This document shows positions 15,004-55,176 of a DNA stretch of 64,000 bases, piece by piece. Where the stretch lies: the NCBI GenBank assembly GCA_046306055.1, contig JBKDXR010000039.1, positions 65,039 through 129,038 on the forward strand, written 5' to 3'. Origin of the DNA: Flavobacteriales bacterium (lineage in GTDB: Bacteria; Bacteroidota; Bacteroidia; Flavobacteriales_F; PHOS-HE28). The notes under the pieces were generated by a model, which saw nothing but the letters and a program-made list of their open reading frames with translations, made no database searches and was not told the origin of the DNA. The translations under genes and the position numbers were made by a program. Numbering within the stretch: the first letter of the stretch is position 1; every line of letters starts with the position of its first letter.

Positions 15004-15025
15004 GGTCATCCTGAACTACCTGAAG

Positions 15026-15058
15026 AAAGGGCTGCCTCCGGGCGGCCCTTTCCTTTTC
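15026..15058 (+). terminator. rho-independent terminator (AAAGGGCTGCC tccg GGCGGCCCTTT + TCCTTTTCC)
   Basis: Hairpin with one G·U pair followed by a T-run, 23 nt after the stop codon at 15003. Confidence 0.5.
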
Positions 15059-15081
15059 CGGTGAACGATCTTTGCACCACC

Positions 15082-15891: not shown

Positions 15892-15932
15892 GCCCTCCAC
15901 AGGGAACAGGCATCACCCTTTCACTCCCGGTC

Positions 15933-16508: not shown

Positions 16509-16539
16509 CGCCAGCCCAGTGCGCAGTAAAAGATGCCGA

Positions 16540-17181: not shown

Positions 17182-17238
17182 GAGCAATGTCGATCGGTGG
17201 ACGTTTACCAAAGTTAGTCGCTCGACCAACCCTCTGCA

Positions 17239-17673: not shown

Positions 17674-17724
17674 GGTCAGGGTTAACGTAGGTATCGCTAC
17701 AACAACTGGACCGGTCGTTCCAGT

Positions 17725-18414: not shown

Positions 18415-18447
18415 GCGCAGCCGCGCCTCTTGGGCGCAGCGCCAAAG

Positions 18448-19800
18448 TTACCGGGTGGTGGCGGGCACCACGCTCGCCACTTTGTCCATGATCACATGGT
18501 ACAGGTCGTCGTCGCCCATGCCTTCGGACCGTATGGAACTGAAGTAACCGGAATGCCCATCGGGCGACAGTACGAAGTACAGATCATCGTCCGGCGAGTT
18601 GATCGGCCACCCCAGGTTCTCCGGCTTGGTCCAGCGACCATCCACCAATCGCGTACGGAAAATGTCGTAGCCGCCCATGGTGGCATGACCCCGGCTGCTG
18701 AAGTACAAGGTCTGCCCATCGGGATGTAGGAACACGCCCTCCTCATCGTGAATGGTGTTCACATCGGGGCCCAGGTTCTCTGCTGGTCCCCACGCGTTCA
18801 AGGTGGCGTCCCAGCGGCTGCGGTAGATGTCCTGGCCGCCCACATTGTCGTCCGGGCGGTCGCTTACGAAGTAGATCCACTGCCTGTCCGCGCTGAGCCA
18901 GGCACTGCTTTCGTGTGCAGCTGAATTAATGGCGGGGCCGAACGGCACCGGTGCGGACCATTGGCCATTCAGTTGATGGCACTCGAAAAGATCACCTTTC
19001 CCCTTCATATCCCGGTACAGGATCATGGTGCCATCGCTGGCGAGCAGACCCACGCTGGCATCATTCCCAGGAGTGTTCAAAGGGGCAGGCTCGGGCACGG
19101 GTGCCGTCCACTGACCGTTCACCAGGCGGCTCACCAGGATCTCCTCGAAATGGTCACCGGTGGCCTTGTTCACTTTGGCATCGTCGCTCAGCTTCCTGCG
19201 GGAGGTGAACCAGAGCGTGTTCCCATCGGCGGACAAAAGGGCCCCATAATCCGAACGATCGGAATTCAGGTCCGTGCCAAGGCCGCGCACTTCGGCCTGC
19301 ACAGGACCGCCCATGAAGGTGCGGCCGTTACGGCATTCGGCCAGGTGCTTGTCGGCCATGTTATAGCGTGGATCGGTATCGGGCATCACATTGGCGCGCT
19401 TGTGCCGCTCGTAACACGCAATGGCGTTGTCCCACTGGGCATTGAGCTGGTAGGCATAACCAGTGAGAAAATGGATACGGGGCTGGTCCGGCGCGAGCTC
19501 CTGTGCCTTGATGAAATAGGCAAGCGCCTTGTGGCGATGCGGTCCGTTCAACTGGCAAAGGCCCATGCGGGTGTTCAGTTCCACGTTGTCGGGGTCCAGC
19601 TTCAGGGCCTCCTCGAACAGGGTCTCAGCGTGAACGAACTGGGCTGGTCCGGCCTGTGCGGCACGGTCGGCCTGCTTCATGAGCTCGGCGGCGCGCTTGC
19701 TGCTCGCAGGGTCCGTGGCGCCTGCGGATTGGGCACTGAGCGGAAGCATGGATAGCGCCATGAACGCTACGAACAGAAGGCGATGCAATGCGTTGAGCAT
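18448..19800 (-). CDS. TPR + TolB-like (PD40/WD40-like beta-propeller repeat) periplasmic protein
   Basis: Signal peptide, N-terminal TPR-like helices, then repeated PD40-type motifs (LSADGNTLWFTS, LASDGTMILYRD, LSADRQWIYFVSDR, LHPDGQTLYFSS, LSPDGHSGYFSS). No OmpA domain present. Confidence 0.7.
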   Translation of the reverse strand: MLNALHRLLFVAFMALSMLPLSAQSAGATDPASSKRAAELMKQADRAAQAGPAQFVHAETLFEEALKLDPDNVELNTRMGLCQLNGPHRHKALAYFIKAQELAPDQPRIHFLTGYAYQLNAQWDNAIACYERHKRANVMPDTDPRYNMADKHLAECRNGRTFMGGPVQAEVRGLGTDLNSDRSDYGALLSADGNTLWFTSRRKLSDDAKVNKATGDHFEEILVSRLVNGQWTAPVPEPAPLNTPGNDASVGLLASDGTMILYRDMKGKGDLFECHQLNGQWSAPVPFGPAINSAAHESSAWLSADRQWIYFVSDRPDDNVGGQDIYRSRWDATLNAWGPAENLGPDVNTIHDEEGVFLHPDGQTLYFSSRGHATMGGYDIFRTRLVDGRWTKPENLGWPINSPDDDLYFVLSPDGHSGYFSSIRSEGMGDDDLYHVIMDKVASVVPATTR

Positions 19801-19930
19801 GGGTCATGCATGTTAATACGGCGCTGTTCATACGCGATCGGCTCTTTCAAGGTTCCCACACGATGAGTCGGATAGCTTTGCCGGGCATCCGATAGGATCA
19901 CCGCTCGTTGACCGAACGTACCATTCCACC

Positions 19931-21031
19931 ATGGCCAAGAAGACCACCACCAAGAGCATACTCGACCAGAAAGCGCTTGATTTCCTGGAACGCTACCTGA
20001 ACAACCCCTCACCCACCGGCTTTGAGAGCGAAGGCCAGAAGCTGTGGTTGAACTACGTGAAGCCCTACGTGGACGACCACATCGTGGACCCCTATGGTAC
20101 CGTGGTGGGCGTGATCAACCCGGAGGCGAAGTACAAGGTGGTGATCGAAGCCCATGCCGACGAGATCAGCTGGTTCGTCCACTACATCACCAAGGAGGGC
20201 TTCATCTATGTGCGACGGAACGGGGGAAGCGACCACATGATCGCCCCCAGCATGCGGGTGAACATCCACACGGAAAAAGGCATTGTGAAGGCCGTGTTCG
20301 GGTGGCCTGCCATCCATGTTCGCAATGGCAAGACGGAGATCGTGCCCACCACGGAGAACATCTTCCTGGACTGCGGTTGCGACAGCAAGGAGGAAGTGGA
20401 GAAACTTGGTGTACATGTGGGCTGCGTGGTCACTTTCGTGGACGAGTTCATGGTGCTGAACGGCCGCAACTTCACCGGGCGAGCGCTGGACAATCGCATG
20501 GGCGGCTTCATGATCGCGCAGGTGGCCCGCATGCTGAAGGAGAGCCGGACCAAGCTCCCGTTCGGCCTGTACGTAACGAACAGCGTGCAGGAGGAAGTCG
20601 GCCTCCGTGGCGCTGAAATGATCGTGGAACGGATCAAGCCCGATCTGGCGATAGTGACCGATGTAACACACGACACGCAGACCCCGATGATGAACAAGGT
20701 GCAGAGCGGGGACATCGCCTGCGGACAGGGCCCCGTGCTGAGCTATGCACCGGCCGTGCATAACAAGTTGCTCAAGCACATCGTGAACGTTGCCGGAAAG
20801 GAGAAGATCCCCTTCCAACGGCTGGCGGCGAGCCGCGCCACAGGTACGGACACAGATGCTTTCGCCTATGGAGCTGCGGGCGTGCCCAGCGCCTTGATCA
20901 GCCTGCCCTTGCGCTACATGCACACCACCGTGGAGACCGTCCACCGTTCCGATGTGGAGAACGTCATCCGCCTGATCCTGGCAGCGGTGAAGGGCTTGAA
21001 GCCGGGCGACGATATGCGCTATTTCAAATAA
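19931..21031 (+). CDS. M42 family glutamyl aminopeptidase (FrvX-like)
   Basis: M42 family motifs (IEAHADEISWFV, LDNRMGGF, EEVGLRGA). Confidence 0.85.
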   Translation: MAKKTTTKSILDQKALDFLERYLNNPSPTGFESEGQKLWLNYVKPYVDDHIVDPYGTVVGVINPEAKYKVVIEAHADEISWFVHYITKEGFIYVRRNGGSDHMIAPSMRVNIHTEKGIVKAVFGWPAIHVRNGKTEIVPTTENIFLDCGCDSKEEVEKLGVHVGCVVTFVDEFMVLNGRNFTGRALDNRMGGFMIAQVARMLKESRTKLPFGLYVTNSVQEEVGLRGAEMIVERIKPDLAIVTDVTHDTQTPMMNKVQSGDIACGQGPVLSYAPAVHNKLLKHIVNVAGKEKIPFQRLAASRATGTDTDAFAYGAAGVPSALISLPLRYMHTTVETVHRSDVENVIRLILAAVKGLKPGDDMRYFK

Positions 21032-33083: not shown

Positions 33084-36000
33084 TCATTGCACCAAGGTGA
33101 CGTGCCCGACGAAGTCGCGGGCATCGCCATCCCTTTCCACGATCACCTTCCACACGTAGACGTCGATCACGGTCTCCTGGCCTCCCACCCGGCCATCCCA
33201 TTCCGCCTCGCGGTCGGTGGTCCGGTAGATCTCCTTGCCCCATCGATCGAAGATCAGCAACGTGTAGTTCCATGTACTGAAGCCGTTCAGCACCGGCCTG
33301 AACCCTTCATTGCGTCCATCGCCATTGGGACTGAACGCGTTGGGCACATACACCAACGGATCGGCCCGCACACCGATCAACTTGCAGGTGGTGTCCGGGC
33401 AACCAAGCTCGTTGATGGCCACCAGGCAAGTGGTGAACGGACCGCCATCGGCAGGATACAGGTGCAACGGATGCACGTCGGTACTGGTAGTGGCGTCGCC
33501 GAAGTCCCAGTTGTAGTTCACCGCGCCCTGGCTCTCGTTGTTGAACCGGACCGCATTTCGCACATTGGCCACGGTGTCGGTACTGAACGCTGCCGTTGGC
33601 GTCGGATGCACCAGTACTGCTCCGGGCACAACCAAGGTATCTGCACACCCGCCGGCCCCTGTGGCGATCAGGGTCACGCTGTATGAACCCTCGTTGGCGT
33701 AAGTGTGCTGGGGAGCATCGGCCTGGGATGAGCTGCCATCACCCAGGGTCCATTGATAGCTCTGTGCGTTCACCGAGGTATTGATGAACTGCAGCGGGTA
33801 TCGGGCGCATGCTGGCTGAGGTTGTAACGTGAAGGATGCATCGGGTGTAGGATGCACAATGAACTGCTGCGTGGCCACATGCTCACAACCATACTGGTTC
33901 GTAGACGTGAGCGAGACCGTATAGGTGCCCGGTCCATCGAACGTGATCGAAGGTTCGTTCAGCACCGACGTGTTCCCGTTACCCAGGTCCCACGCGTAAC
34001 CAATGGCCGACTGCGAATTATTGATGGTCTGCACGGTCACAGGTGAAGTACAGCTGGAATAGGCCGATAGCTCGAACGCACTGGTGGGCAAGGGGAATGC
34101 CACCACTGGCATGCTCAGAGTGTCGGTGCATCCATTGAGGTTCTCTGCAACGAGCGTTACCGAATAAGTGTCCGCAGTGGTGTATGTGTGCGTTGGCGTG
34201 GATGAGCCTGAGGTATTGCCGTCACCGAAGTCCCATTGATAGAAATCAGCGCCAGTGCTGCTGTTGGCGAAGTTGACCTCCAGATCAATGCACCCCGATC
34301 CGGGCTGTGGAGTGAATGAAGCCACGGGCGTTGTGCCGACAGTGACCTGTTGCACAAGCGTGGCCGTGCAACCATCGGGCGCTGAGGTGACGGTCAGCGA
34401 CACGGCATAAGTGCCTCCGGTGGCATAGGCATGCTCCGGTGCGGATAGTAGGGAACCGGTGCCATCGCCAAAGTCCCAGCTCACGCTGGCACTGTTCGGC
34501 GTGGTGTTCGTGAAGGTGAACGGCTCACCAGCGCATACCGTGCTTGGAGTGGTGGTAAAGCTGACCGCTGGTGAAGGCAATACAGTGACCGTGGTGGCAT
34601 ACTGATCGAACCCGCAACCGAAAGCGGACAGTTCGATGACGTAGGTGCCAGCGTTCACGAAGGTGTGCGAGGGTGCATCGGCAATGCTGAAGTTCCCATC
34701 ACCGAACGACCACAAGAGAGCGGTATCGCCGCTGCTATAGTTGGTCAGGTCCACTGTGAGCGGACCACAACCCACCACCGGGTCCGTATTGAAAAAGGCC
34801 GTTACCTCGTTAGGCACCACACCGATCACCTGTTGGGCCGTATCGCTTCCACACTGGTTGGCCACGACCAAGGTGATCGTGTAGTGGACCGTGGAATCCA
34901 CATCCACCAAATAGGCATGCGTCACAATGGGACCGGGATCGCTGCTCGTACCGCCATCGCCGAAATCCCACGTGAACGTGTCGGGCAAACCATAGCTCGC
35001 ATTCCCGAAAGGGACATCGCTATAGGCGCAATGCAGGTTCACGTTCGGCCCGAAGACCGCCGTGGGGGATGGGATGACAGTTACCGGGGCACTATCGCTG
35101 TCCGCCCCACAGGCGTTCGTGGCCGTGAGGGTCACGTTGTAAACGGCGGCCTGCTGTGGATCGGGTGGGAAGGTGAAACTGCCGGGCCACTGGTCGGTGC
35201 TACTTCCAAGGCCGCCGAAGTCCCACACATAGGTTAGGCCATCGCCTAACGAGGTATTGTCCGGATCTACGGTCAGGGGGCCGCATCCTTCATCGGTGCT
35301 GAGTGCCAATTGAGCTTCAGGCACATCCCAAACCTGTACCGTACTGTAAGTGGTATCGGAACAACCGGCTCCGGTAATGGCCACCAAGCGTACCGTGTAA
35401 ATTCCAGTTGTTGTGTAGGTGTGCTGTGGCGACATCGCGAACGATACACCTCCGTCGCCGAAGTCCCACTCCGCACTTGTGGCACCAATGCTGGCATTCG
35501 CGAAGCCAAAGGACACACCGGCGCAAGCCACCGGCCCATTCGTGAAGTCGGCCACTGGCAGGGGTTGAACGGTCACGGTGGCCCCGTCGCTATTGCTGCA
35601 ACCGCTGGCTGGATCGGTGTACAGATAGGTCACTGGGTTGCCGCCCGGTAAGGCCAGCAATGGATCGAACTCGCCGGTGATGGGGTCCACTCCCACCCCG
35701 CTCCATGTACCACCGGTTGGCGTAGCTGTCAGCACTTGCACACCACCATCGAGACAAACGGCGATATCGTTGCCGGCATCGACCACCGGCAGATCGTTCA
35801 CCACCACGTTCACCTGGTCCTGAAGCAAGCAGGTGCCCGTTCCAATGGAATAAGTCAACGTGTAGCTACCAGCGACCGATGTGGAGAGCACACCTGCAGG
35901 GCTCACCTGCGGACCGCTCCAGGTGCCGCCGACAGGCGTTGCATTCAATTGCAGCGGACCACTTCCCACGCACACAGCGGTATCGGCTCCCGCATTGGCC

Positions 36001-39000
36001 GGATCGATCACGGGCTGCACGTCCACCGTGGCCTGGTCGCTCGCTGTGCATCCATTGGCATCGACCAACGTGTAGGTGATCACATCAGAGCCCACACCGG
36101 AAGGCAACAGCTCATTGGATGCGTTGATGGTCATCCAACCCGCGCTCCACGTGCCTCCCGCAGGTGAACCGCTCAACGGGAAGGGTATCGGCTGATCGCA
36201 CAGGACCAGGTCCGGCCCTGCGTTCACTGTAGGAATGGCGTTCACCGTGGCATTCACGGTGGCGGTGGAAACGCACCCGTTCGCGTTCTGGTAGGTGTAG
36301 GTCAGCACTTGTGTTCCGGGAGAAACAGCGCCGGGATCAAAGCTCCAGGGCGGCCCTGAAACGCCATTGCCCGTCCAGCTACCTCCTGCGGGAGTACCTG
36401 TCAGCGCAACAGCGGCAGCATCGGCACAACGGCTGAAGGCAGGCATAACGTTGAGCAAGGTTGCGGGCACAACGCTCACTTGTACTTGATCGCTCGTAGC
36501 GCACGTGCCTGTGCCGTAGGCATAGGTCAGCGTGAAATTCCCGGTGGCACTGGGCGTGTACCAACCGCCGGCTGCGGCGCCGGTCCACGTTCCACCGGCC
36601 GGCGACGAACCTTGCAATTGCACGGGTGTGGTCCCCTGACACAAAGTGGTATCCGCACCTGCATTGGCGAACTGCGGAACATCCTGGACCGTTATCGGGA
36701 CCTGGGCCGTGCTCGTGCAGCCATTTGCATTCACGTAGGTATAGGTCAGTACGAACACCCCGAGCGAATCCGGTATCGGGGTGAAGACACCGCCAGCGGT
36801 CACCAAGGGACCGCTCCATGTACCTCCTGTCGGCGATGCGCCCGCCAACGTGACAGGTATGGCCTGGTCGCAAAAGGTCTGAGCGGTGCCTGCTGTGGTG
36901 GGTGTAGGCTGATACACGGTCATGGTCACCGTGGTATTTCCCGGACAGCCACCCACATCACCGGTCACGGTGTAGGTCGTGGTAACGGTCGGAGTCGCCG
37001 TAAAGGTCGGACCCGTACCCACCTGGGTTGATCCGATATACCATTGGTAATTACCCGCGCCGCTCGCCGTGAAGGTGGCACTGCCGCCGTTACACACGGC
37101 CGCGGTATTCGGCGTTACAGAGACCGTTGGTGCCGCAACCACCAGCACGTTCACGATGGTGGCCGGGCTCTGGCAACCATTGCTCACCGCCACCACGGTA
37201 TACTGACCGGCATTGGCAGCCGACGCGTTCGGAATGGTGAATGCCGCCTGGTTGGAGACCACGTTGCCTCCCGGACCGGTCCAGATGTAGCTCACTCCTG
37301 CCCCGCCGTTGGCCGTAAAGGAAATGGTCTGTCCGGCGCATACCGGACTGTTGCTCGATGCAGCAGGCGCAGCAGGTGCCGTGCCAATGGACAGGTTCGC
37401 GTTGGACGTGGCTTGTCCGCATGCATTCACCACAGTGAGGGATAGCGTGGGGTTTCCCGCATTCGCAAAACACACCTGACCCGGTGCCAGCGTGTTCGCG
37501 TTGGCAGGAGTTCCTCCCGGGAAGTTCCACGTGTAACTGGTGATCGGCGCGCCGCAATCCTGCACCGTGGCAGAGGGGTTCACACATTGCCCGGCACAGA
37601 TGCCGCTCAAGGCCGCGGTGCTCACCTGTGGCGGCGCGTTCACCACCACCTGCTGCGTGATCGGCGGTACGTTGCAGGTGTTCACTGCGCGGAACTGAAC
37701 GGTATACGTTCCGGGCTGATCGAACAGGAAGCTCGGCTGGAACGCCGTGGAAGAAATGCTCGTGGCCGTACCCGTGGCACAGGATGATGCAGTGCCGTTC
37801 ACGTTCCACTGCCAGGTGGTCTGGCAACTGTTCGGGCTGTTCGTCGAGTTGGTGGTGGTCACGTTCAGCGGAACACAACCGGTATTGGCGGAAAGCGTGA
37901 ACGCAGGCACCGGAGGTTCTTCCACACAAATGGTGCGCGACAGGGTATGAAGTCCGCAACTATTACCGGTAAGGTCGGTGATGGTGTAGGTGCCCGCCAC
38001 GGTGAACTGCAGGTTCAAGGTGGTACTACCATCGGTCCACAAGCCGGGGTTGGCCGGGTTGCCATTGTCGTTGCCCAAGGTGCCTGACGCAATGTTCCAT
38101 CCCGTGGATGGCGTGACGGACCAGATGTTGCGCGGAGCCGTGGCACAACCCGGTGCTGTAAGCCCGATGCTCTGGTCGGTGAAGCTCACCGTGGTGTTCA
38201 CACAAGCCGTATCGTTCGGCGCCAGGGTGAACTGTGCCTGCGGAGTTTCGCTCACCCGGATGGGGCCGATCTGCCCCTGCGTCTGGTCGCACGGGTTCTG
38301 TGCAGTGAATGTGACGTTGAGCTGCCCTCCAGCAAGGCCGCAGGTGGACGTGGTGTACGTGTGATTGACAACGGCAGGCGGCGGATGGGCCAGGGTCACG
38401 CTATTGCCATCGCCGAAGTTGATGATGTAGGTGGTGCCCGGCGAATTGCCCGCAACGGAATTGATGTAGAAGGGCAGCGTGCCACCCGTACAGATGTTCG
38501 TGTTCGGGTCCGTACTGATACCTCCGCCGGGGTTGGTACCAAGAAAGACCTGGTATTGCTGGCTGCGAATGCATCCGTTCGGGTAGGCGATGGTGTAGGT
38601 CATCGTCCAGAGCCCTTGCGCATAGTTGTGGCTCAAGCTCCATCCTTGCGAGGGGTTCTCGACCGGCGAGCCATCGCCCCAGTTGATGCTGCGCACCGCG
38701 CCCGGTACGTTGGCGCTCTGGTCAGTGAAGCTGAAGTTCCAAGAACCACTGGGATCGCAGATGCTGAACGTGGTGAGGTTGTTGAACGTGGTGATCTGCT
38801 CCGGACCGGTGGTGGTGAGCAAGGCCGGTGGCGCAGGGTTCACGTTGATCGTGATGCTGTCCGTGGCCGTGCAATTGTTGTCGTCGGTGACCGTGAGCGT
38901 GTACACGGTGGTCACCGTGGGTGATGCGCTCGGGTTGGCAACGTTGGGGTTGCTCAACCCTGTGGCGGGCGACCAGCTGTAACTGTAGGGCTGCTGTCCA

Positions 39001-39170
39001 TTATTGGCCGAACCGTTCAATTGCTGCGACGCACCCTCGCAAATGGTATACTGCGTTGGCCCCGCGTTCGCAGTGAAATTACAGGGCTGGGCATGTACGA
39101 CCTGCACCCAGAACAAGGGCACAAGCACGGCAAGCCAGCGTAGCGGACCGTTCATTTTTCGAGCACACAT
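33084..39170 (-). CDS. giant (~2030 aa) PKD-repeat surface protein with T9SS type B CTD
   Basis: Signal peptide. At least 10 PKD-like repeats carrying the WDFGDG signature, plus SprB/Ig-like Cys-containing repeats. C-terminal PNAFSPNGDGRNEGF...FDRWG...GHVTLVQ. Alternative starts at 39176 (GTG), 39170 or 39155 (ATG). Confidence 0.8.
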   Translation of the reverse strand: MCARKMNGPLRWLAVLVPLFWVQVVHAQPCNFTANAGPTQYTICEGASQQLNGSANNGQQPYSYSWSPATGLSNPNVANPSASPTVTTVYTLTVTDDNNCTATDSITINVNPAPPALLTTTGPEQITTFNNLTTFSICDPSGSWNFSFTDQSANVPGAVRSINWGDGSPVENPSQGWSLSHNYAQGLWTMTYTIAYPNGCIRSQQYQVFLGTNPGGGISTDPNTNICTGGTLPFYINSVAGNSPGTTYIINFGDGNSVTLAHPPPAVVNHTYTTSTCGLAGGQLNVTFTAQNPCDQTQGQIGPIRVSETPQAQFTLAPNDTACVNTTVSFTDQSIGLTAPGCATAPRNIWSVTPSTGWNIASGTLGNDNGNPANPGLWTDGSTTLNLQFTVAGTYTITDLTGNSCGLHTLSRTICVEEPPVPAFTLSANTGCVPLNVTTTNSTNSPNSCQTTWQWNVNGTASSCATGTATSISSTAFQPSFLFDQPGTYTVQFRAVNTCNVPPITQQVVVNAPPQVSTAALSGICAGQCVNPSATVQDCGAPITSYTWNFPGGTPANANTLAPGQVCFANAGNPTLSLTVVNACGQATSNANLSIGTAPAAPAASSNSPVCAGQTISFTANGGAGVSYIWTGPGGNVVSNQAAFTIPNASAANAGQYTVVAVSNGCQSPATIVNVLVVAAPTVSVTPNTAAVCNGGSATFTASGAGNYQWYIGSTQVGTGPTFTATPTVTTTYTVTGDVGGCPGNTTVTMTVYQPTPTTAGTAQTFCDQAIPVTLAGASPTGGTWSGPLVTAGGVFTPIPDSLGVFVLTYTYVNANGCTSTAQVPITVQDVPQFANAGADTTLCQGTTPVQLQGSSPAGGTWTGAAAGGWYTPSATGNFTLTYAYGTGTCATSDQVQVSVVPATLLNVMPAFSRCADAAAVALTGTPAGGSWTGNGVSGPPWSFDPGAVSPGTQVLTYTYQNANGCVSTATVNATVNAIPTVNAGPDLVLCDQPIPFPLSGSPAGGTWSAGWMTINASNELLPSGVGSDVITYTLVDANGCTASDQATVDVQPVIDPANAGADTAVCVGSGPLQLNATPVGGTWSGPQVSPAGVLSTSVAGSYTLTYSIGTGTCLLQDQVNVVVNDLPVVDAGNDIAVCLDGGVQVLTATPTGGTWSGVGVDPITGEFDPLLALPGGNPVTYLYTDPASGCSNSDGATVTVQPLPVADFTNGPVACAGVSFGFANASIGATSAEWDFGDGGVSFAMSPQHTYTTTGIYTVRLVAITGAGCSDTTYSTVQVWDVPEAQLALSTDEGCGPLTVDPDNTSLGDGLTYVWDFGGLGSSTDQWPGSFTFPPDPQQAAVYNVTLTATNACGADSDSAPVTVIPSPTAVFGPNVNLHCAYSDVPFGNASYGLPDTFTWDFGDGGTSSDPGPIVTHAYLVDVDSTVHYTITLVVANQCGSDTAQQVIGVVPNEVTAFFNTDPVVGCGPLTVDLTNYSSGDTALLWSFGDGNFSIADAPSHTFVNAGTYVIELSAFGCGFDQYATTVTVLPSPAVSFTTTPSTVCAGEPFTFTNTTPNSASVSWDFGDGTGSLLSAPEHAYATGGTYAVSLTVTSAPDGCTATLVQQVTVGTTPVASFTPQPGSGCIDLEVNFANSSTGADFYQWDFGDGNTSGSSTPTHTYTTADTYSVTLVAENLNGCTDTLSMPVVAFPLPTSAFELSAYSSCTSPVTVQTINNSQSAIGYAWDLGNGNTSVLNEPSITFDGPGTYTVSLTSTNQYGCEHVATQQFIVHPTPDASFTLQPQPACARYPLQFINTSVNAQSYQWTLGDGSSSQADAPQHTYANEGSYSVTLIATGAGGCADTLVVPGAVLVHPTPTAAFSTDTVANVRNAVRFNNESQGAVNYNWDFGDATTSTDVHPLHLYPADGGPFTTCLVAINELGCPDTTCKLIGVRADPLVYVPNAFSPNGDGRNEGFRPVLNGFSTWNYTLLIFDRWGKEIYRTTDREAEWDGRVGGQETVIDVYVWKVIVERDGDARDFVGHVTLVQ

Positions 39171-39303
39171 TAGCACCTACGAAGGTACCCGGACCTGTAG
39201 ACGCGTGCAGCGTCAAGACCACTGGTTATCAACGGCATCGTGTGATCAAGACGTTCGTTTGTGACGAACAGTTGCCCTTTGCGCCGATCAGCAGTTCCAG
39301 CGA

Positions 39304-46993: not shown

Positions 46994-47019
46994 GCCAACG
47001 GCACACCATGGAATGTGGA

Positions 47020-47054
47020 GAAGCCCGCTGCTGAGCGGGCTTCTGCGTTCTTTG
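47020..47054. terminator. bidirectional rho-independent terminator between convergent genes (GAAGCCCGCT gctg AGCGGGCTTC + T-rich)
   Basis: Perfect 10-bp stem with a 4-nt loop, T-rich on the plus side. Sits between the stop of the J/KTSC gene (46993) and the stop of the giant helicase gene (47120). Confidence 0.65.
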
Positions 47055-47119: not shown

Positions 47120-50100
47120 TCATACCCGCCGATAGCCCTTCTCCACCTTCTTCGCACGCACCTTTTCCATCTCTCGGCGCGCCGAGGTCTCGTCGACGAA
47201 TTGCTTGGTGAGCGATTGACCGGCTGTTCCGATCCGACCGTAGCGTACGATGTAGGATGCGCCTTCCACCCTCACCTCCCAGAACTTGCTGCTTCCATCC
47301 TCCACGCATTCGTAGCGCTCGAAGGCTCTGTCGCTCTCTGTGACCAGAGGCTCGGGCATGGGTTCAACAGAAGCCGTTGAAGGCTTCGGGGCTGTTGGTG
47401 TTAGAGCGCCCGGCACTTGCTCAACACCAGGTCCAGGCGCCACGACCACCTCAGGCGCGACCTCCTCCACGCCAGCAAGTACACGATCCAAGCGCCCCAT
47501 CACCTGTTCCGGATCATTGAACCAATCCTTGGCGAGGATAGTGATCACCTGCCAACCGAAGGCGCGCAGCAAGGCCGGGCGCTGGCAGTACTGCTCCAAT
47601 ACATTGTCGTTGCGGTAGTGCACATCGGAATCGATGAGGATGCCGAGGCGGTAGCCCTTGCCATCGGTAGCACGTACGGCCAGGTCGCACCGGAAATAAG
47701 AACTGCCCACGTTGCGATCCACCTGTAGGCCTTGGGCCTGGAGCCGTTCCTCGATCCGCGTGGTCACTGAGGATACCTGATCGCTGCTGTGCTCTGCGCC
47801 ACGCAGGGATAGCCCATCAAGCACAGTGGCCGCGCCATCCTGCTCACCCGCCGATAAGCGCTCGGCATATTGCAGGAACCGCCGCAGGTAATTGGCCCCC
47901 TCGTTGTGCTCGTTCTTGATATCGTTGGCGGTGATGCTGCTCACCACGGCCATGTGTCGCTTGGCCCGCGAGAAGATCACATTCAGGCGCTTCTCCCCGC
48001 CCCTACGATTGATCGGCCCGAAGTTCATGAGCATCCGGCCGTTCGCATTGGGCGCATAGCATACGCTCATGATGATCACATCGCGTTCATCGCCCTGCAC
48101 GTTCTCCAGGTTCTTGATGAAAAGCCCCACGAACTGATCGTCCTCCACGCGCTGGTACTCCTCTTCCAACCTGGCCTCGAACGCCTTGTCGGCGGCCGCC
48201 AGTTCCTGCAACGCCTCTTCGATGGCCGATTGCTGCTCGATGGAGAAGGCCACCACCCCGATGCTGCGACCCTGGCCGATGAGCTGTTGAATGAGCAGGG
48301 CGATGTAGCGTGCTTCCTGGTCATTGCGTCGCTCGTGGTACACGCCGTTCCGCAGGTGGTGGAAACTGATGGGGCGGTCGGACAATGCGTTAACATGCCG
48401 TACCGCATCCGCTGGATCCACAACGCTGATGGGAGCTTGTTGGGCCTGCAGCAGTTGCTGGTCCGGGATGGTGAGCAGTCCGCGCCCGTAGAACGCCGCG
48501 TTGCTGAAGCTGATGAGGCTTTCATGACGACTGCGGTAGTGCCAGCCCAGCATCACGCCCCGCAACTTGCGAACGCCCTGGCTCAGCAGACTGTCCGCAT
48601 CCAAGGCAATGCCGATTCGTTCCTCGGTGGCCTCCTCTTCCTCGTCCACATCGCCGCTGGTGGTGTTGAAGAAATTAGTGGGCGGCATCTGCATCTCATC
48701 GCCCACGATGATGGTCTGCGCGGTGCGGAACAAGGCGGGCACTCCTTCCTCCAAGGTGATCTGGCTGGCCTCGTCGTAGATCACCACATCGAAGAGCTTG
48801 GTGTCCAGCGGCAGGATGTCCGATACGCTTTGCGGGCTCATCAGCCATACGGGTTTCAGGCCCATCACCACCGGACCGCTCTCTTTACCGATCAGCTCTC
48901 GTACGCTCTTGTAGCGCATCGACTTGCCGAACTCGTTCTCCAGGATGCGCCGACCTGCGGTCCACTCCTTCTTGATGGACCGCTCCTCTGGTCCCATGCC
49001 CGTGACACTCGTATCCGATATCCGTACATGGTGCTTGAAACGGGCCCGTACCGTTGAACGGATCAGGTCCGCGTTCACATCGAGGTAGCGCTTCTCCAGG
49101 GCATTGAGCTGCTTCACGCTTTGGAGAATGGACAGCCCGTCCAGGCGATCGAACAGCCGGTCGGTACGGTACACCTCGTGCAATGACCTGTAGGCCGTGA
49201 GGTAAGCCATGGCATCGGCACTGATGCGCTGCCTGGTGATGAAAGCGCGCAGGCGTGGCTCCAACGCCGCGATCTCGCGCACATAGGGAACCAGGCCACT
49301 GAACCCGTTCAGCGCTTTTCTCGCAGCCACCATCCATTGCTCAACGCCATTCAGCGGAAGCTCTTCGCAGAAGGTGTTCAGGGTGCGCGCCTGCTCGGTA
49401 AAGCGATCGAGGTCGGCACCGAGCTCCACCAGCTCAGCGATCTCCGAAGGCGGCATGGCGAGCAGGGCGTTCCACTTGGCATCGCGCTGGCGATCACGCA
49501 GGGCGCGCACCAGTTCACGGCTCAGCGTATTGTCCTCCAGGCCGTAACGATCCTGCATGCCTTGCTCCAGGTCAGCAAGTTTCTCCGACGCTTCATGATC
49601 CGCACAGAGGTCGTCCAGCAAGCGCGCTATCTCAGGGGCCACCTGGTGTTTACCGAGATCATAGCTTCTCGCGACCATCGCCTTGATGCGCCGATAGGTG
49701 CCGTTCAGGAACTTGAAGAAACCCTTGTTCACGCGCTGCCATTGCTCGCGTGCTGCCTGCGCATCCGCAGCGTTGGGCCTCTGCTTCCAGTGCACCGTGG
49801 CCTTGGCGGCTTTCGCCAACGCCTTCCTCTGGCGCTCGATGGAATCCACATCCGTATCGTAGCGGCGCGCATCCTCATGACCGTTCTCGAAAATGCCGAG
49901 CCTGTCCCGCGCGGCCACCGGCCTCAATTGGCGCGCACCACCCACCAGCATCATCAGCTCGCCCAATGTGGGGCTCAAGCCATCCGGCAGGTCGATGGTA
50001 TCCAATTGTTCGTTGATGCGCTCCCACACCTGTTCGGCTTTCCCCAACGCATCAGCGATGCGTCCAAGGGGCTGCTCGTCGTGCAGCAATTGCGCCTGCA

Positions 50101-52546
50101 CCGCGATCAACGGATGCTCTGCCGGAACGGGGGCATGACCGAGCTCTTTCAATGCCACGGCCAGCTCGTGTACCAGCCGTTCCACCGACAGCCATGCGGC
50201 GTGGTCCGGTATGCGCTCCAAGGCAAGCGCATCCACTTGGTGCAGGCTCTCGTCGCGCTGCGCGATCAAGCGGTCCAACAGGGTATGCAAGGGGATCCCT
50301 GTGGACGCATGGGCCTCACGCATGCGCTGGTGGAAATGCTCCAACCGTCCGATCTCCTCCTCCATCCTGCCTAACACGGCGGCCCGTTCGCGCGCGATGG
50401 AAGCCTCGTCCATGGTGCTCTTCAGGAAGGCATCGTAGGTCTGCTTCAGGTCCTGGATGAAAGCCTTCTTATCGGCCTGCGAGTCGTGTACGCGGCAGCA
50501 GACCTCATCGAGCTCACGTTGCTTCAGGCGATGGAAGACCACGTCGAGCGCTGCGCGTTTCTCGCAGACGAAGAGCACCTTCTTACCAGCACCGACATAA
50601 TAGGCGATGAGGTTGGTGATGGTCTGAGACTTGCCTGTGCCCGGAGGCCCTTGGATGATGTAGCTACCACCGCTCGCCGCCTGTTCGATGGCGCGGGTCT
50701 GTGTGGGATCGGCCTGGATGATAGGGAACCGATCGGCAAGCGGGGCACGCACCGGAGCGGCATCCTGCAACGGTCTTGGTTGATCGCTGAAGAGCATGCT
50801 GAACACGTCATCCTTGGCGTTCGCCTCGATGATGTGGTCGTAATCGCGCACAAGGGACATGCGCCGTGCATTGAAGTTGCCCAGCGTAACGTTGCAGAGG
50901 TCCACCTCCCAATGGTAGGGGTTGGTATCGCCCTCTTCCACCGTGTTGTAAAAGCTGCGACCGCCGTTGCCCTTGGCATGATCGACACCGGGTCGGAGGT
51001 CTTCGTTGATGATGTACTCGAAGGTGCTCGCGGCCGGACGCACCTTGCGCTGGTAGAGCTGAAGGCCCAGCGGCGTGAAGCCTTCCGTGCCGTAAGAATA
51101 GCTGAAGCTGCGCGTATCGCGGCCACTGGCGTGCCGACGCGTGCGACGCAGGATGCGCGAGAACGCCTGCCGTGCAGCGGCATGCACCACTTCGATGCGG
51201 GGCTTGTCCACCAGGTCAAGTTCGATCTCCGACCCGCTGCTCTTGGATTGCTGGCCTATGCTGCTTACCAGGTCCTCCACACTGGACTCCTCCAGATCGA
51301 TGGAGTCAGGCAATTGTATCCCGTACAACTCGCGGAAATAATGGACGAGCACAGGGTTCACCTCGGCCTCTGCGGTGCGGCATTCCAGTACGTACTGGTC
51401 CTTCACGCCCTTGCGCTTGACCAGTTCCACGGGCAGCAGGATTAGCGGCGTATTGATCTTCTCGTTGCCGTAGTCCTTGAAGTTGGTCCACCGCAGGAAG
51501 GCGATCACCAGCCGTAAGGGATCCACGCCGTATTCGTTCACCGCTTTGCGCGCCTCGCTGCGCACTTTGTCCAAGCGTGCGGGCAAGGTGGGGCGCTCCT
51601 TCATGTCGAGGTAGCTGGTAAGCACCAAGCGCTTCTTGCCGATCACTTTGTCCCGCACGGAACCGCTCCATGTGATCAGTGAAGCAGGGTCGATGTTCTT
51701 GTGGTCCAGCAAGGGCGGTACGCTGGCTACGGTGAGGTTCACAAAGCCCTCGGTATCGCGGAAGTAGAGCAGCCTGTTGCGACGGCTCAGATCGAAGAGG
51801 CGCGCCTTGAGCTTGGCAAGGATCCAGTTGTCGCGCGAGCTCAGGTCCTGCTGGCGGAACCCGGAAGTGCGCGTGAGGTCCACATAGTTGTCCGGGTCGT
51901 ACTGCCTGAAGTTCTTCAGCTTGGCGATGACCTCATCGAGGCTGCGCGGACGGTCCTCGCGATAGAGCTGCGTACATTCCGTGATCACGCTCACCAGTGT
52001 GGGGTGCACCTGTTCGTTCAGGGCGAAGAGGTTATCACGACGCTCCACGAAGGCCTCAAGGTCCTCGGGATCGTTGAAGTCCAGACCGAACGCGAGGCTG
52101 GCAAGGATGAGCCCGCAGATATGGATGTCGGTGATGGGGTCGTGATGGCCGATCTCCAGTTCCCAAGCAGCGTAGCCCAGCAGGTATTTCGGGGCGCTCA
52201 GCGTCTCCCCTTCCTGACGGATCAGCGCATTTCGGTAAGCATGATGATCATCGTCCAATTCGGTCACTTCGCGCGTCACCACCACCGGACCTTCCTGCCT
52301 GGGCTTCGTGAACAGAAAGCGCGTGTGGGATATAGGGCCGCTGGTGCGTCCCAGGTCCAGGTACAATCGCCCTTCTTCCACACGTACGGCATCCGCATTG
52401 CGCAAACGGGCCACACGCCCTTCCATGTGTACACCGTGCAATGCTTCCAGCAAGGGCATGACCACGGCGATCACGTCATCGGTGCGCAGGCCGCCCTGTT
52501 CATCGCAATACCGCAGGAACCCTCGGAAATCCAGCCCTTCGTTCAT
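47120..52546 (-). CDS. 1808-aa multidomain protein: kinase-like N-terminus + DUF4011-like + SF1 (Upf1-like) helicase with large insertion + Vsr/DUF559-like endonuclease + Pro-rich linker + WGR domain
   Basis: Walker A [13 protein letters not shown] (aa 631-643). Walker B [9 protein letters not shown] (aa 1254-1262). Motif III [11 protein letters not shown]. Motif V [14 protein letters not shown]. Motif VI [16 protein letters not shown]. DUF4011-like [11 protein letters not shown]...[10 protein letters not shown] (aa ~230-560). Endonuclease-like YFRCDLAV...[13 protein letters not shown]...[12 protein letters not shown] (aa ~1590-1695). WGR signature [41 protein letters not shown]...KKVEKGY at the extreme C-terminus. 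Confidence 0.85.
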   Translation of the reverse strand: [1808 protein letters not shown]

Positions 52547-52549
52547 CGC

Positions 52550-53794
52550 TTATTCCTCTTGCAGGCTTTCCTCACCAACGTCCTTCATCTTCGACAACCC
52601 TTCCAGCGCACGCTCCTTGAGCTGCTTGAGCTCGCGGGCACCCAGCTTCAGCTCCTTGCGCAGGATGGCATCGAACTCCGCCGACAGATCCAACAGCTCC
52701 GCCAGTTCCAACATGTGGCCCAAAGGCACTTCCTCCTGTTCGCTGTCGCAACGGGCCACATCAAGCAGCACATAACTCAGGTAGTTGCGTGTGTCCTTGG
52801 CGGCGCTCTTCACCTGCTCGCGCAAGGCATCGGTCACATAGGTATCCGGGCTGCGCTTCATCTCGGGGAAATAGGACCGGCACAAAGCGGCCACCGCCGT
52901 ACTGAATATCCATCCGGGCTTCACGGCCAACAACAACAGTTCCTGCGTGAGGCGATGCAGCTCCTTCTGCCGGAACAGGTCCAGGTTGTTGATGTCAAGC
53001 GGGCCGCGTATGAGGCGCTCGATGCGCTCGGTGGAGGCCGAAGGATCATTGTGCCAATGGTGCAGTGCCAGGCAGCGCAGGTAATTCTCCGGATGCGTGG
53101 CGGCCTCACTGCCTTCATTCGCGGCGTTCACCACTTCCTCGGCCTGCTGCACGTAGCTGGCGGTGTTCACCTGGGCCAGGCCCGTGTGCAACTTGATCAA
53201 ACAACTGAGCACGGCCTCCGCATCCTGCGCAGCGAGCATGGCCCCGCGGTCGCAGAACAGCTCCATGTAAAGGCTGTAGAGGCGCGCGGTCTCCACGTGC
53301 ACATCCTCGCTACGTTCATCGTTGGCAATGGCATACACCACACGCGCGGTAACCTCGTGCTCGCCTCCATCCAATACATAGAACAGGTAGTGCGCCAGCT
53401 CGTGGCCCAGTAGCGCGAGGAGCTCCTTCTCGGTCAGCAATTCCATCAGCCGGCCGCTGAGCACAATGTGCGCCTCCTTGCCGAGGATGGAGATACCTGC
53501 GTTCAGATGCGTCGTGTTCTGCTCCTGGTACAGCGTCACCACGGCATCGATGTTCAGTGCCTTCACCGCTTGTTCGGCCGATCTGTAGGCACCGGCGTAG
53601 GTCGTCGCGTCCAGCCGATAGGTGTTCTTGAGCAGGGCCGTGCGGTGTGCCTTGGCCTGCTCCTCCTTCACCTGTTGCCCGCTGAACCACTTCCACGTGC
53701 GCTCGCGCTGCTTGAAGTGATCACGCAGTTGGGCGTGGAAGGGGAATGGCACGAGGGCGACCCCGTTGGAAAGGGATGATGCGGATGCTTCCAT
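52550..53794 (-). CDS. HExxH zinc-metallopeptidase-like protein (M48-like signature HELAH ... THPENYLR), C-terminal coiled-coil
   Basis: GHELAHYLFY at aa 130-139 and THPENYLR at aa 233-240 resemble the M48 HExxH and distal Glu elements. No TM segment or signal peptide. Its stop lies 3 nt before the start codon of the 1808-aa gene. Confidence 0.55.
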   Translation of the reverse strand: MEASASSLSNGVALVPFPFHAQLRDHFKQRERTWKWFSGQQVKEEQAKAHRTALLKNTYRLDATTYAGAYRSAEQAVKALNIDAVVTLYQEQNTTHLNAGISILGKEAHIVLSGRLMELLTEKELLALLGHELAHYLFYVLDGGEHEVTARVVYAIANDERSEDVHVETARLYSLYMELFCDRGAMLAAQDAEAVLSCLIKLHTGLAQVNTASYVQQAEEVVNAANEGSEAATHPENYLRCLALHHWHNDPSASTERIERLIRGPLDINNLDLFRQKELHRLTQELLLLAVKPGWIFSTAVAALCRSYFPEMKRSPDTYVTDALREQVKSAAKDTRNYLSYVLLDVARCDSEQEEVPLGHMLELAELLDLSAEFDAILRKELKLGARELKQLKERALEGLSKMKDVGEESLQEE

Positions 53795-54009: not shown

Positions 54010-55176
54010 ATGCGCCACATCGACCGCGAACTCGCTCCTGTGCTACTGAAAGCATCGCGTGGCTTCCCTGCTGTGGTGCTCACAGGACCACGGCGGGCGG
54101 GAAAGACCGTGCTATTGCGCAAGCTGTTCCCGAAGGCTTCGTACACCCTGTTGGAGGACCCCGATGTGATCGCGCGGCTTCGGGCCGACCCTCAAGGATT
54201 TCTCGATGGATTGGCCCTGCCTGCGATCCTGGACGAGGTGCAGAACGTGCCGGAGCTACTCTCCTACATCCGCTCGCGGATCGATGCGAAGCCGCGACGG
54301 ACCGGCCAGTGGTTCATCACCGGCTCGCAGGAAGCGCCCTTGATGCGCGGTGTTACGGAAAGCATGGCGGGACGGGCGGCCATCCTGCATCTGTATCCCT
54401 TGTCCACCACGGAATCAGCGAAGGTGGACCTGCTGCACGGCGGCTATCCGGAAGCCGTGGCGCGGCCGAAGAGCTCAGCGCTCTGGTTCAGCTCCTACGT
54501 GCAGACCTACCTGGAGCGCGATGTGCGCGCTGTGACCAACGTGCGCGACTTGGCGACCTTCCGTCGCCTCATGGCGCTGCTGGCCACACGGCACGGTCAG
54601 ATCCTGAACCGCAGCGAATTCGCCGGCCCCTTGGGCGTGAGCGTACCCACGATCAACCAATGGCTTGGCGTGTTGGAGACCACCCAGCAGCTCATCATCG
54701 TACCGCCGTTCTACGACAACCTGGGGAAGCGCCTCACCAAGTCGCCGAAGATCTACTTCACCGACAGCGGGCTGGCCTGCCATCTGTTGGGCATCACCAG
54801 CAAGAGCGAACTGGAACGGTCACCCTTTCTGGGTGCCTTGTTCGAGGGCTTTGTGGCGGCTGAGATCGTGAAGCGGCAGGTGAACGCCGGAGAGCGCCGG
54901 GAACTGTATCACTTCCGCGACGAACAAGGGCTGGAGGTGGACTTCCTGGTACCCGGTCGCAACGGTGCGCTCACCTTGATCGAGTGCAAGGCCACGCGCT
55001 CTCCCTTCCCGGCCATGGCCGGGAACCTGATCAAACTGAAGGCCAACCTCGCCAAGAAACAAAAGACGCGCACGAAAGTGGATGCCGTTCTCGTTCACCG
55101 CAAAGGGACCAAGGACACTTCCCGTGCTCTACTACCGGAGGTTACGGCCCTATCGCTGGAGCGTTGGCTGGGCTGA
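54010..55176 (+). CDS. AAA+ ATPase with DUF4143 C-terminal domain (AAA_14 family ATP-binding protein)
   Basis: Walker A VLTGPRRAGKT. Overall pattern of the widespread archaeal-ATPase-like/DUF4143 family. Confidence 0.8.
   Translation: MRHIDRELAPVLLKASRGFPAVVLTGPRRAGKTVLLRKLFPKASYTLLEDPDVIARLRADPQGFLDGLALPAILDEVQNVPELLSYIRSRIDAKPRRTGQWFITGSQEAPLMRGVTESMAGRAAILHLYPLSTTESAKVDLLHGGYPEAVARPKSSALWFSSYVQTYLERDVRAVTNVRDLATFRRLMALLATRHGQILNRSEFAGPLGVSVPTINQWLGVLETTQQLIIVPPFYDNLGKRLTKSPKIYFTDSGLACHLLGITSKSELERSPFLGALFEGFVAAEIVKRQVNAGERRELYHFRDEQGLEVDFLVPGRNGALTLIECKATRSPFPAMAGNLIKLKANLAKKQKTRTKVDAVLVHRKGTKDTSRALLPEVTALSLERWLG

What the first reader, a model, noticed from the sequence alone, without database searches (positions are those of the whole stretch)
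47123..47326. WGR domain fused to the C-terminus of a bacterial SF1 helicase-nuclease
The last ~66 residues ([41 protein letters not shown]...KVEKGY) match the WGR signature. In PARPs this domain contacts DNA break ends. It is preceded by a ~45-aa Pro/Val-rich flexible linker (47327-47461). A break-sensing module tethered to a helicase-endonuclease would fit activation by free DNA ends or nicked DNA.
Basis: partly seen in the sequence, partly recalled or inferred. Interest (0 to 1): 0.6.

Follow-up and report, generated by a model that had tools for sequence, protein, structure and literature searches.

The report
Optional WGR tail on helicase-nuclease
The last 66 residues of a 1808-residue bacterial helicase-nuclease are a genuine WGR domain on a floppy tether, most likely an optional add-on that steers the enzyme to nicked or broken DNA; the fusion is widespread and already labelled in databases, but I found no paper describing it.

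Summary
Residues 1743-1808 of the ORF at 47120..52546(-) match Pfam WGR (E 7e-15, 55 bits against a cut-off of 22). AlphaFold2 models them confidently as a WGR fold, joined to the nuclease domain by a disordered acidic/proline-rich linker of about 45 residues.

The protein reads pseudokinase-like N-domain, DUF4011, SF1 helicase, MTES_1575 nuclease, linker, WGR. It sits in a conserved two-gene operon with an M48-like zinc metalloprotease.

WGR is not universal. It occurs in 28 of 90 near-full-length cluster representatives and 16 of 27 species-level loci of this subfamily, and in 0 of 49 more distant DUF4011 helicases. It has been gained or lost many times. In rare relatives a BRCT domain or a Pol-X 8-kDa helix-hairpin-helix domain occupies the same C-terminal slot.

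Residues invariant in this WGR clade align with PARP2/3 residues that contact DNA breaks.

Best reading: WGR is a tethered, dispensable module that recognises DNA nicks or ends and recruits the enzyme. It is not a PARP-style obligatory allosteric switch. The fusion is already named "WGR domain-containing protein" in databases, but I found no literature on it. Verdict: new variant of a known kind (Hhe/PDC-S37-like helicase-nucleases), moderate interest.

The parts
47123..47326 (-). WGR domain (residues 1741-1808; Pfam envelope 1748-1807). Its last codon directly precedes the stop at 47120-47122.
   Evidence: Pfam PF05406 E 7.3e-15, 55.3 bits. AF2 pLDDT above 95. Foldseek matches to 2ra8 and PARP2/3 WGR. 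Profile hits to 2ra8 and PARP3 WGR.
47327..47461 (-). Disordered Pro/Val/Glu-rich linker (residues 1696-1740) between the nuclease and WGR.
   Evidence: AF2 pLDDT 41-55. Unalignable and variable in length among homologues. Median 45 aa and net charge -8 across 164 homologues.
47483..47758 (-). MTES_1575 restriction-endonuclease-like (PD-(D/E)xK) domain, residues 1597-1688.
   Evidence: Pfam PF18741 E 2.1e-15, 57 bits against a cut-off of 38.2. AF2 pLDDT above 85. Foldseek match to the I-Bth0305I catalytic domain, TM 0.71. D1639, E1651 and K1673-D1674 are invariant in the clade.
47936..50710 (-). SF1 (AAA_11/AAA_12) helicase core with a long helical insertion, residues 613-1537.
   Evidence: Pfam AAA_11 1.3e-18 and AAA_12 1.3e-16. 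GPPGTGKS, DEASQ, VGDxxQxPP and QGDERD are invariant.
51341..51802 (-). DUF4011 domain, residues 249-402.
   Evidence: Pfam PF13195 E 6.3e-18.
51803..52546 (-). N-terminal protein-kinase-like (pseudokinase) domain lacking the N-lobe, residues 1-248.
   Evidence: No Pfam hit. AF2 pLDDT 88, pTM 0.81. All top 50 Foldseek PDB hits are protein kinases. Weak profile hits to kinase C-lobes. The positions I aligned by eye to the HRD and DFG motifs are not conserved in the family consensus.
52550..53794 (-). Partner gene: soluble M48-like zinc metallopeptidase (414 aa; HELAH then ELFCD). Its stop lies 3 nt upstream of the helicase start.
   Evidence: Pfam Peptidase_M48 1.7e-9 and SprT-like 1.1e-6. Sequence and junction. 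Conserved immediately upstream in L001-L005, in 26 of 27 species loci, and in the Ralstonia and BRCT-variant loci. The HhH-variant locus has an unassigned 445-aa gene at that position.
47019..47044 (.). GC-rich hairpin between the helicase stop and the convergent DnaJ/KTSC gene. It is a likely shared terminator.

Best explanation
The segment is a genuine WGR domain. It sits at the extreme C-terminus of an SF1 (DUF4011) helicase fused to a PD-(D/E)xK nuclease, on a disordered, mostly acidic tether of about 45 residues. The gene forms a two-gene operon with an M48-like metalloprotease.

I propose that WGR works as a dispensable, flexibly tethered DNA-discontinuity binder. It would hold on to nicks, gaps or 5'-phosphorylated ends. 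This would raise the local concentration of the helicase-nuclease at such sites, so that the motor can load and the nuclease can cut. It would not act as a PARP-type allosteric switch.

Shown: domain identity, fold, tether disorder, patchy phyletic distribution, operon conservation, and the alignment of clade-invariant residues with PARP DNA-contact residues.

Inferred: DNA-break specificity, the recruitment role, and the biological role of the whole system. The system is probably surveillance of foreign or replicating DNA, as in its relatives Hhe/ProA/PDC-S37. A repair role is not excluded.
For: Identity and fold. Pfam WGR scores 55 bits against a cut-off of 22. The AF2 model and the Foldseek matches to 2ra8 and to PARP2/3 WGR-DNA complexes agree. 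The profile hit to PARP3 WGR has E 5.9e-5 with a clean alignment.

Conserved surface. The invariant or near-invariant clade residues are K1754, W1756, G1770, R/K1771, Q1777, K1795, K1800, G1804 and Y1805. They align with PARP2 K130, Y132, G152, R153, Q159, K178, K183 and, by inference, Y201. Mutating W151, R153, K183, K179, Y201 or N127 in PARP2 abolishes specific break binding (PMC6294510). The WGR is basic (median net +5) and the linker acidic (median -8).

Domain swaps. C-terminal tails are bimodal: 0-31 aa, or 87-232 aa carrying WGR. The three exceptions carry a BRCT domain (Pfam 3.9e-9), a Pol-X HHH_8 domain (1.3e-6), or a decayed WGR. The BRCT variant has the M48-like gene upstream. The HhH variant has an unassigned 445-aa gene in that position. 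From general knowledge, BRCT domains and the Pol-X 8-kDa domain bind 5'-phosphorylated nicks, gaps or DNA ends.

Accessory nature. WGR is present in 118 of the 120 closest homologues. It is present in only 50 of 150 representatives at 50% clustering, 28 of 90 near-full-length ones, and 16 of 27 species loci. An NJ tree needs at least 16 state changes.

System context. PADLOC PDC-S37 hits at 3e-214, and the Hhe and ProA antiphage models hit strongly but below their cut-offs. The gene is strain-variable in Ralstonia (14 of 115 records).
Against: I found no reported experiment showing that a bacterial WGR binds DNA. Comparative-genomics authors describe it only as a predicted DNA-binding domain of MolR-like factors (PMC7824862).

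The Trp that stacks on the 5' ribose in PARP2 (W151) is Tyr or Phe here. Sequence similarity to PARP2 itself is weak: only the GRxGxxGQ core aligns. The Y1805-to-Y201 equivalence is inferred, not aligned.

The HHH_8 hit is just under Pfam's cut-off (29.1 against 30). The BRCT and HhH variants are each a single cluster.

Neighbourhoods of the operon are mostly housekeeping genes, so a defence role is unproven.

AF2 output gave no inter-domain error estimates. Transient docking of WGR on the enzyme therefore cannot be excluded.
Confidence: 0.55

Rival explanations
1. Generic nucleic-acid anchor. WGR binds duplex DNA, or RNA, without any preference for breaks. It would simply add affinity or processivity, as proposed for MolR-like 'transcription factor' WGR domains.
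For: Aravind-group annotation calls WGR an alpha+beta DNA-binding domain of MolR-like factors. The domain is basic. W151 is replaced by Y/F. The closest solved relative, 2ra8, has no assigned function.
Against: The clade-invariant residues coincide with those that read the break and 5'-phosphate in PARP2, not merely backbone binders. The alternative modules in the same slot (BRCT, Pol-X 8 kDa) are end- or gap-binders rather than generic duplex binders.
Confidence: 0.25
2. PARP-like allosteric switch. On binding a break, WGR docks on the nuclease or helicase and relieves autoinhibition.
For: This is how WGR works in PARP1-3. An acidic linker next to a basic domain could form an autoinhibitory pair.
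Against: Orthologues with no tail at all keep the same core, N-domain and partner. The tether is disordered and varies from 24 to 168 aa. No PARP helical or catalytic domain is present.
Confidence: 0.12
3. Non-DNA ligand or protein adaptor. WGR binds a nucleotide polymer such as poly(ADP-ribose), a signalling molecule, or the M48 partner or its substrate.
For: PARP1 WGR has been reported as a PAR reader (abstract of 10.1101/2021.12.21.473685, listed). The partner protease is always present.
Against: The partner is equally conserved where WGR is absent. No ADP-ribosyltransferase lies in the operon.
Confidence: 0.06
4. Chance match or annotation artefact.
For: None found.
Against: E 7e-15. 118 of the 120 nearest homologues have the same precomputed Pfam hit. 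The fold is modelled confidently.
Confidence: 0.01

Closest known systems
WGR domains of PARP2/PARP3 (DNA-break sensors)
   Same: Same Pfam family and fold. The GRxGxxGQ core, the K-aromatic-aromatic strand, the helix lysine and (inferred) the terminal Tyr are all conserved. These are the DNA-break contacts in PARP2.
   Different: There is no ADP-ribosyltransferase or helical regulatory domain. The domain is C-terminal on a disordered tether rather than packed against a catalytic domain. W151 is Y/F. It is about 66 aa, against about 100 aa in PARPs, lacking the insertion before the final strand. It is dispensable in orthologues.
2RA8 (Bacteroides fragilis Q64V53), a structural-genomics WGR-containing protein
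   Same: Closest solved WGR: 34% identity, rmsd 0.8 A, profile E 2.9e-20.
   Different: There the WGR is N-terminal to an unrelated 300-aa region. There is no helicase or nuclease, and the function is unknown.
Hhe (DUF4011 helicase + Vsr-like nuclease; an antiphage protein according to the NCBIfam and PADLOC model names)
   Same: DUF4011, SF1 helicase and C-terminal PD-(D/E)xK nuclease core. PADLOC Hhe 2e-98; NCBIfam Hhe 471 bits.
   Different: The score is far below the family cut-off (2000). None of the 49 distant DUF4011-helicase loci sampled had the kinase-like N-domain, an M48 partner or a WGR tail. I did not check which of those loci are Hhe proper.
PADLOC candidate PDC-S37 and NCBIfam 'anti-phage protein ProA'
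   Same: These are the best-scoring defence-related profiles over the helicase-nuclease core (3e-214; 710 bits).
   Different: Coverage of the profiles is only partial (202-1342 of 1550; best stretch 1253-1716 of 1903) and below ProA's cut-off of 1500. I could not find a paper describing ProA in the library.
Hachiman HamAB (helicase sensor + nuclease that responds to DNA damage)
   Same: Conceptually similar: a helicase-nuclease pair that surveys genome integrity and reacts to damaged DNA (abstract of PMC12278908).
   Different: Different helicase superfamily and nuclease family. It is a two-protein complex with no WGR and no protease partner. This is an analogy only.

Membership tests
WGR domain (Pfam PF05406) | Profile score above the gathering cut-off | tested here: met
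   55.3 bits against 22, E 7.3e-15. The precomputed hit is present in 118 of 120 homologues.
WGR domain (Pfam PF05406) | WGR fold (beta-sheet plus C-terminal helix) | tested here: met
   AF2 pLDDT above 95 with strands 159-198 and helix 202-218 of the model. Foldseek matches to 2ra8 and PARP2/3 WGR at probability 0.95-1.0.
WGR domain (Pfam PF05406) | Trp-Gly-Arg signature | tested here: inconclusive
   Gly is invariant and Arg is R/K. The Trp position is Tyr/Phe (Y1769). The clade's invariant Trp (W1756) sits at the position of PARP2 Y132.
PARP / ARTD enzymes | ADP-ribosyltransferase catalytic domain and helical regulatory domain next to WGR | tested here: not met
   There is no PARP or PARP_reg Pfam hit in the 1808-aa protein or its neighbours.
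Hhe antiphage protein (NCBIfam NF042953) | Whole-protein score at or above the curated cut-off (2000 bits) | tested here: not met
   471.5 bits.
ProA antiphage protein (NCBIfam NF058533) | Whole-protein score at or above the curated cut-off (1500 bits) | tested here: not met
   710.2 bits.
PADLOC PDC-S37 candidate | Full-length match to the model | tested here: inconclusive
   E 3e-214, but only profile positions 202-1342 of 1550 are matched. PADLOC shows no curated cut-off.
PADLOC PDC-S37 / Hhe / ProA (antiphage function) | Protection against phage when expressed | not testable with these tools
   Needs a plaque assay.
SF1 helicase (AAA_11/AAA_12) | Walker A, Walker B and motifs III-VI intact | tested here: met
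   GPPGTGKS, DEASQ, VGDxxQxPP, QGDERD and RLNVxxSRA are invariant.
MTES_1575 PD-(D/E)xK nuclease (Pfam PF18741) | Profile above cut-off and conserved acidic core | tested here: met
   57 bits against 38.2. D1639, E1651 and K1673/D1674 are invariant in the clade. Fold match to I-Bth0305I.
Peptidase M48 (partner gene) | HExxH plus a downstream ExxxD zinc ligand; profile above cut-off | tested here: met
   38.2 bits against 20.3, covering only profile positions 26-76 of 186. HELAH and ELFCD are present. No membrane segments are seen by eye, which is atypical for M48.
Protein kinase (N-terminal domain) | Catalytic HRD Asp, DFG, and ATP-binding N-lobe | tested here: not met
   The fold is kinase-like. 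The domain starts at the helix preceding the catalytic loop. The positions I aligned by eye to the kinase HRD motif read 'APL' in the family consensus, and those aligned to DFG are not conserved. This points to a pseudokinase.

The most novel reading that the evidence does not exclude
The operon is an undescribed bacterial DNA-surveillance system. An SF1 helicase-nuclease carries a pseudokinase docking domain for a dedicated soluble M48 metalloprotease. Interchangeable break-reading modules (WGR, BRCT, Pol-X 8-kDa HhH) direct it to nicks, gaps or ends. This would be a prokaryotic use of the PARP-type break sensor outside ADP-ribosylation. It might act either as antiphage immunity triggered by phage DNA ends or replication intermediates, or as a helicase-plus-protease DNA-protein-crosslink repair machine analogous to eukaryotic SPRTN with a helicase.
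Probability: 0.18. Interest if true: 0.8.

Novelty: new variant of a known kind. Interest (0 to 1): 0.5.

Why it matters
WGR is known almost entirely as the DNA-break-reading domain of PARPs. What its many bacterial copies do is essentially untested.

Here it is attached to enzymes whose substrate is DNA. Natural tail-less and domain-swapped (BRCT, Pol-X HhH) controls exist in sister proteins. This makes the system a clean one for asking whether bacterial WGR reads nicks or 5'-phosphate ends.

The conserved pairing with an M48-like protease and a pseudokinase domain marks out a distinct, widely distributed two-gene system. It is found in Bacteroidota, Verrucomicrobiota, Pseudomonadota, Planctomycetota, Myxococcota and others. 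It is related to the Hhe/PDC-S37 defence helicases, but its biology is unknown.

Tried and rejected
I re-ran with the core, residues 530-1700.

2. Literature searches for WGR+DUF4011, WGR+phage defence, WGR+helicase and M48+helicase+anti-phage found no paper on this architecture. Many 'WGR' hits were the unrelated wGRR statistic. Two searches for 'ProA' found nothing relevant.

3. The M48 partner gave no PDB sequence hit and no NCBIfam or PADLOC family.

4. The UvrA paralogue next to the Ralstonia copy suggested a repair link, but it is absent from all other loci. I rejected it as a conserved feature.

5. PARP2 itself does not reach significance against the clade profile beyond the GRxGxxGQ core. 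The residue mapping therefore runs through the PARP3 alignment and the PARP2-PARP3 similarity.

7. I considered that tail-less proteins might be truncated gene calls. I rejected this because tail-less loci contain no WGR-like ORF within 3 kb downstream and the tail lengths are sharply bimodal.
Full report
**1. Observation**

The window is about 60% G+C. It carries type IX secretion cargo genes and other Bacteroidota-type genes. The nearest named relatives of the protein are from Flavobacteriales MAGs.

The ORF 47120..52546 on the minus strand is intact and encodes 1808 aa.

Pfam finds five domains above their cut-offs:
- DUF4011 at residues 249-402.
- AAA_11 at 613-737.
- AAA_12 at 1328-1537.
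- MTES_1575 nuclease at 1597-1688.
- WGR at 1748-1807 (E 7.3e-15, 55.3 bits against a cut-off of 22; 2.6e-16 on the isolated tail).

An AlphaFold2 model of the last 224 residues was built with 34 homologues. It gives two confident domains: the nuclease (model residues 1-106) and WGR (153-224), both mostly above pLDDT 90. They are joined by a segment at pLDDT 41-55.

Foldseek against the PDB matches the WGR part to 2ra8 (rmsd 0.8 A over 67 columns) and to PARP3 WGR. It also matches PARP2 WGR, including DNA and nucleosome complexes (probability 0.95-1.0). The nuclease part matches the PD-(D/E)xK homing endonuclease I-Bth0305I.

**2. What surrounds it**

The helicase gene starts 3 nt after the stop of a 414-aa gene at 52550..53794(-). 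That product has an HELAH motif followed by ELFCD. It hits Peptidase_M48 and, more weakly, SprT-like. I saw no membrane segments in it by eye.

The pair is followed by a GC-rich hairpin before a convergent DnaJ/KTSC gene.

The first 248 residues have no Pfam hit. They model confidently (pLDDT 88, pTM 0.81), and all top 50 Foldseek PDB matches are protein kinases. A family profile weakly hits kinase C-lobes. The domain lacks an N-lobe. The positions I aligned by eye to the catalytic HRD and DFG motifs are not conserved in the family consensus. I read it as a pseudokinase-like domain.

**3. Related sequences**

*Closest homologues.* A search of 5.8 billion proteins gave 895 hits. The best 120 are all about 1800 aa, and 118 of them carry the precomputed WGR hit. 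Several are already named 'WGR domain-containing protein' by NCBI or 'predicted DNA-binding WGR domain protein' by JGI.

*Operon partner in close loci.* Five loci from relatives at 42-88% identity, including one WGR-less member, all have the roughly 400-aa M48-like gene immediately upstream. Their other neighbours are unrelated housekeeping genes.

*Cluster representatives.* An exhaustive HMMER search used the core only (residues 530-1700, no WGR) against representatives at 50% identity. Among the best 150, 50 carry a C-terminal WGR. Among the 90 that are near full length, 28 do.
- A neighbour-joining tree needs at least 16 changes of WGR state.
- Tails after the nuclease are bimodal: 0-31 aa, or 87-232 aa with linker plus WGR.
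- Three exceptions exist. One has a decayed WGR. One has a BRCT domain (Pfam 3.9e-9). One has the Pol-X 8-kDa HHH_8 domain (1.3e-6, 29.1 bits, just under the cut-off of 30).
- The BRCT variant has the M48-like gene upstream. The HhH variant has an unassigned 445-aa gene at that position.

*Species-representative genomes.* Twenty-seven loci encode the full architecture including the N-domain.
- 26 have the M48-like gene directly upstream. The exception is L010.
- 16 have WGR. They come from Bacteroidota, Verrucomicrobiota, Sphingomonadales, Cupriavidus, Rhodocyclaceae, Anaeromyxobacter, Armatimonadota and Victivallales. In two of them WGR lies in a separate reading frame.
- 11 have no WGR anywhere within 3 kb. 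They come from Planctomycetota, Oceanobacillus, Acidimicrobiales, Variovorax, Allohahella and others.
- The 49 more distant DUF4011 helicase loci lack the N-domain, the M48 gene and any fused WGR.

*Ralstonia.* On Ralstonia solanacearum megaplasmids the pair is annotated 'M48 family metalloprotease' plus 'WGR domain-containing protein'. It is present in 14 of 115 Ralstonia records that had any match.

**4. Does the WGR look able to read DNA breaks?**

The residues invariant or nearly invariant in the clade are K1754, W1756, G1770, Q1777, K1781, E1792, K1795, K1800, G1804 and Y1805. Position 1771 is R or K, and 1769 is Y or F.

The clade profile aligns to PARP3 WGR as follows: SnKFW to NNKFY, ryGRiGtkgQ to RWGRVGEVGQ, and reKlk to REKTK. 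I verified the PARP2 WGR sequence against PDB chains. Its numbering is consistent with the residues named in PMC6294510.

Through that alignment the equivalences are:
- K1754 = K130.
- W1756 = Y132.
- Y1769 = W151.
- G1770 = G152.
- R1771 = R153.
- Q1777 = Q159.
- K1795 = K178.
- K1800 = K183.
- Y1805 = Y201, by inference only.

In PARP2 these residues contact the break. Mutating W151, R153, K183, K179, Y201 or N127 abolishes specific binding.

The domain is basic (median net +5) and the linker is acidic (median -8; 24-168 aa long).

**5. Mechanism**

The best-supported model is that WGR is a tethered, optional module recognising DNA discontinuities. It recruits or retains the helicase-nuclease at nicks, gaps or ends.

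Two independent lines support this. The conserved face coincides with the PARP break-binding face. And the same C-terminal slot is occasionally filled by BRCT or by the Pol-X 8-kDa domain. From established knowledge of LigA, PARP1 and Pol beta/lambda, those modules also bind DNA ends and 5'-phosphates at nicks and gaps.

WGR is not an obligatory activator. Many orthologues with the same core, N-domain and partner have no tail. The tether is also disordered and of variable length.

What the system does as a whole is inferred. The core is most similar to antiphage or candidate-antiphage helicase-nucleases: PDC-S37 at 3e-214, ProA at 710 bits and Hhe at 471 bits, the last two below their cut-offs. 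The operon is phyletically patchy and strain-variable. In this window it lies next to a DUF4143 ATPase matching candidate PDC-S01 that is missing from the syntenic relative.

Against a defence role, most neighbourhoods are housekeeping genes. The protease-plus-helicase pairing also leaves room for a repair role, for example on DNA-protein crosslinks.

**6. Comparison and novelty**

It is a member of the WGR domain family. It is not a PARP, because it has no catalytic domain. It fails the curated cut-offs for Hhe and ProA.

The fusion is common and already carries database names, so the bare observation is not new. I found no paper describing the fusion, the M48 partner or the pseudokinase domain. 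The subfamily with interchangeable C-terminal DNA-end modules is therefore best called a new variant of a known kind.

**7. Verdict**

Interest is moderate (0.5). The natural WGR-less, BRCT and HhH variants make the hypothesis readily testable.

Noticed in passing
window 51803-52546 (-), residues 1-248 of the helicase: The N-terminal domain has no Pfam hit but folds as a protein-kinase-like domain without an N-lobe. The positions I aligned by eye to the HRD and DFG motifs are not conserved, so it looks like a pseudokinase. It co-occurs strictly with the M48 partner gene.
   Followed up: yes
window 52550-53794 (-): A soluble M48-like zinc metalloprotease (HELAH...ELFCD) appears translationally coupled to the helicase, with a 3-nt gap between the genes. 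It is conserved upstream in 26 of 27 species-level loci, whether or not WGR is present.
   Followed up: yes
P0177 / L086 2408-7975 and P0149 / L087 1517-7066: Sister proteins carry a BRCT domain, or a Pol-X 8-kDa HHH_8 domain, in place of WGR after the nuclease domain. P0140 has a frameshifted or decayed WGR.
   Followed up: partly
window 54010-55176 (+): An AAA_14/DUF4143 ATPase matches PADLOC candidate PDC-S01 (4e-100). It lies between the M48 gene and the ABC-F gene and is absent from the otherwise syntenic relative L001. It may be an inserted defence-type gene.
   Followed up: partly
L085 (Ralstonia solanacearum CP047139.1) 14657-20494: A 1945-aa UvrA paralogue lies directly downstream of the M48 + WGR-helicase pair. 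This adjacency was not found in any other locus.
   Followed up: yes
L043 (Aliihoeflea sp.) 7836-8099 (-): A distant DUF4011 helicase without a tail has a separate short ORF with a WGR-like match (E 3e-7) on the opposite strand downstream.
   Followed up: no
L018 7926-8120 and L028 7232-8416: In two MAG loci the WGR lies in a separate reading frame from the helicase body. This could be a frameshift, an assembly error or a split gene.
   Followed up: no
L010 (Chitinophaga sp. MAG): This is the only full-architecture locus with WGR but no M48-like ORF in the 3 kb upstream.
   Followed up: no
window 33084-39176 (-): A 2030-aa protein has nine PKD repeats and a CHU_C type IX secretion signal. Together with other T9SS-tail proteins, it indicates a Bacteroidota host despite 60% G+C.
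   Followed up: no
window 47019-47044: An 11-bp GC-rich hairpin lies between the convergent helicase and DnaJ/KTSC genes. It is a likely bidirectional terminator.
   Followed up: partly
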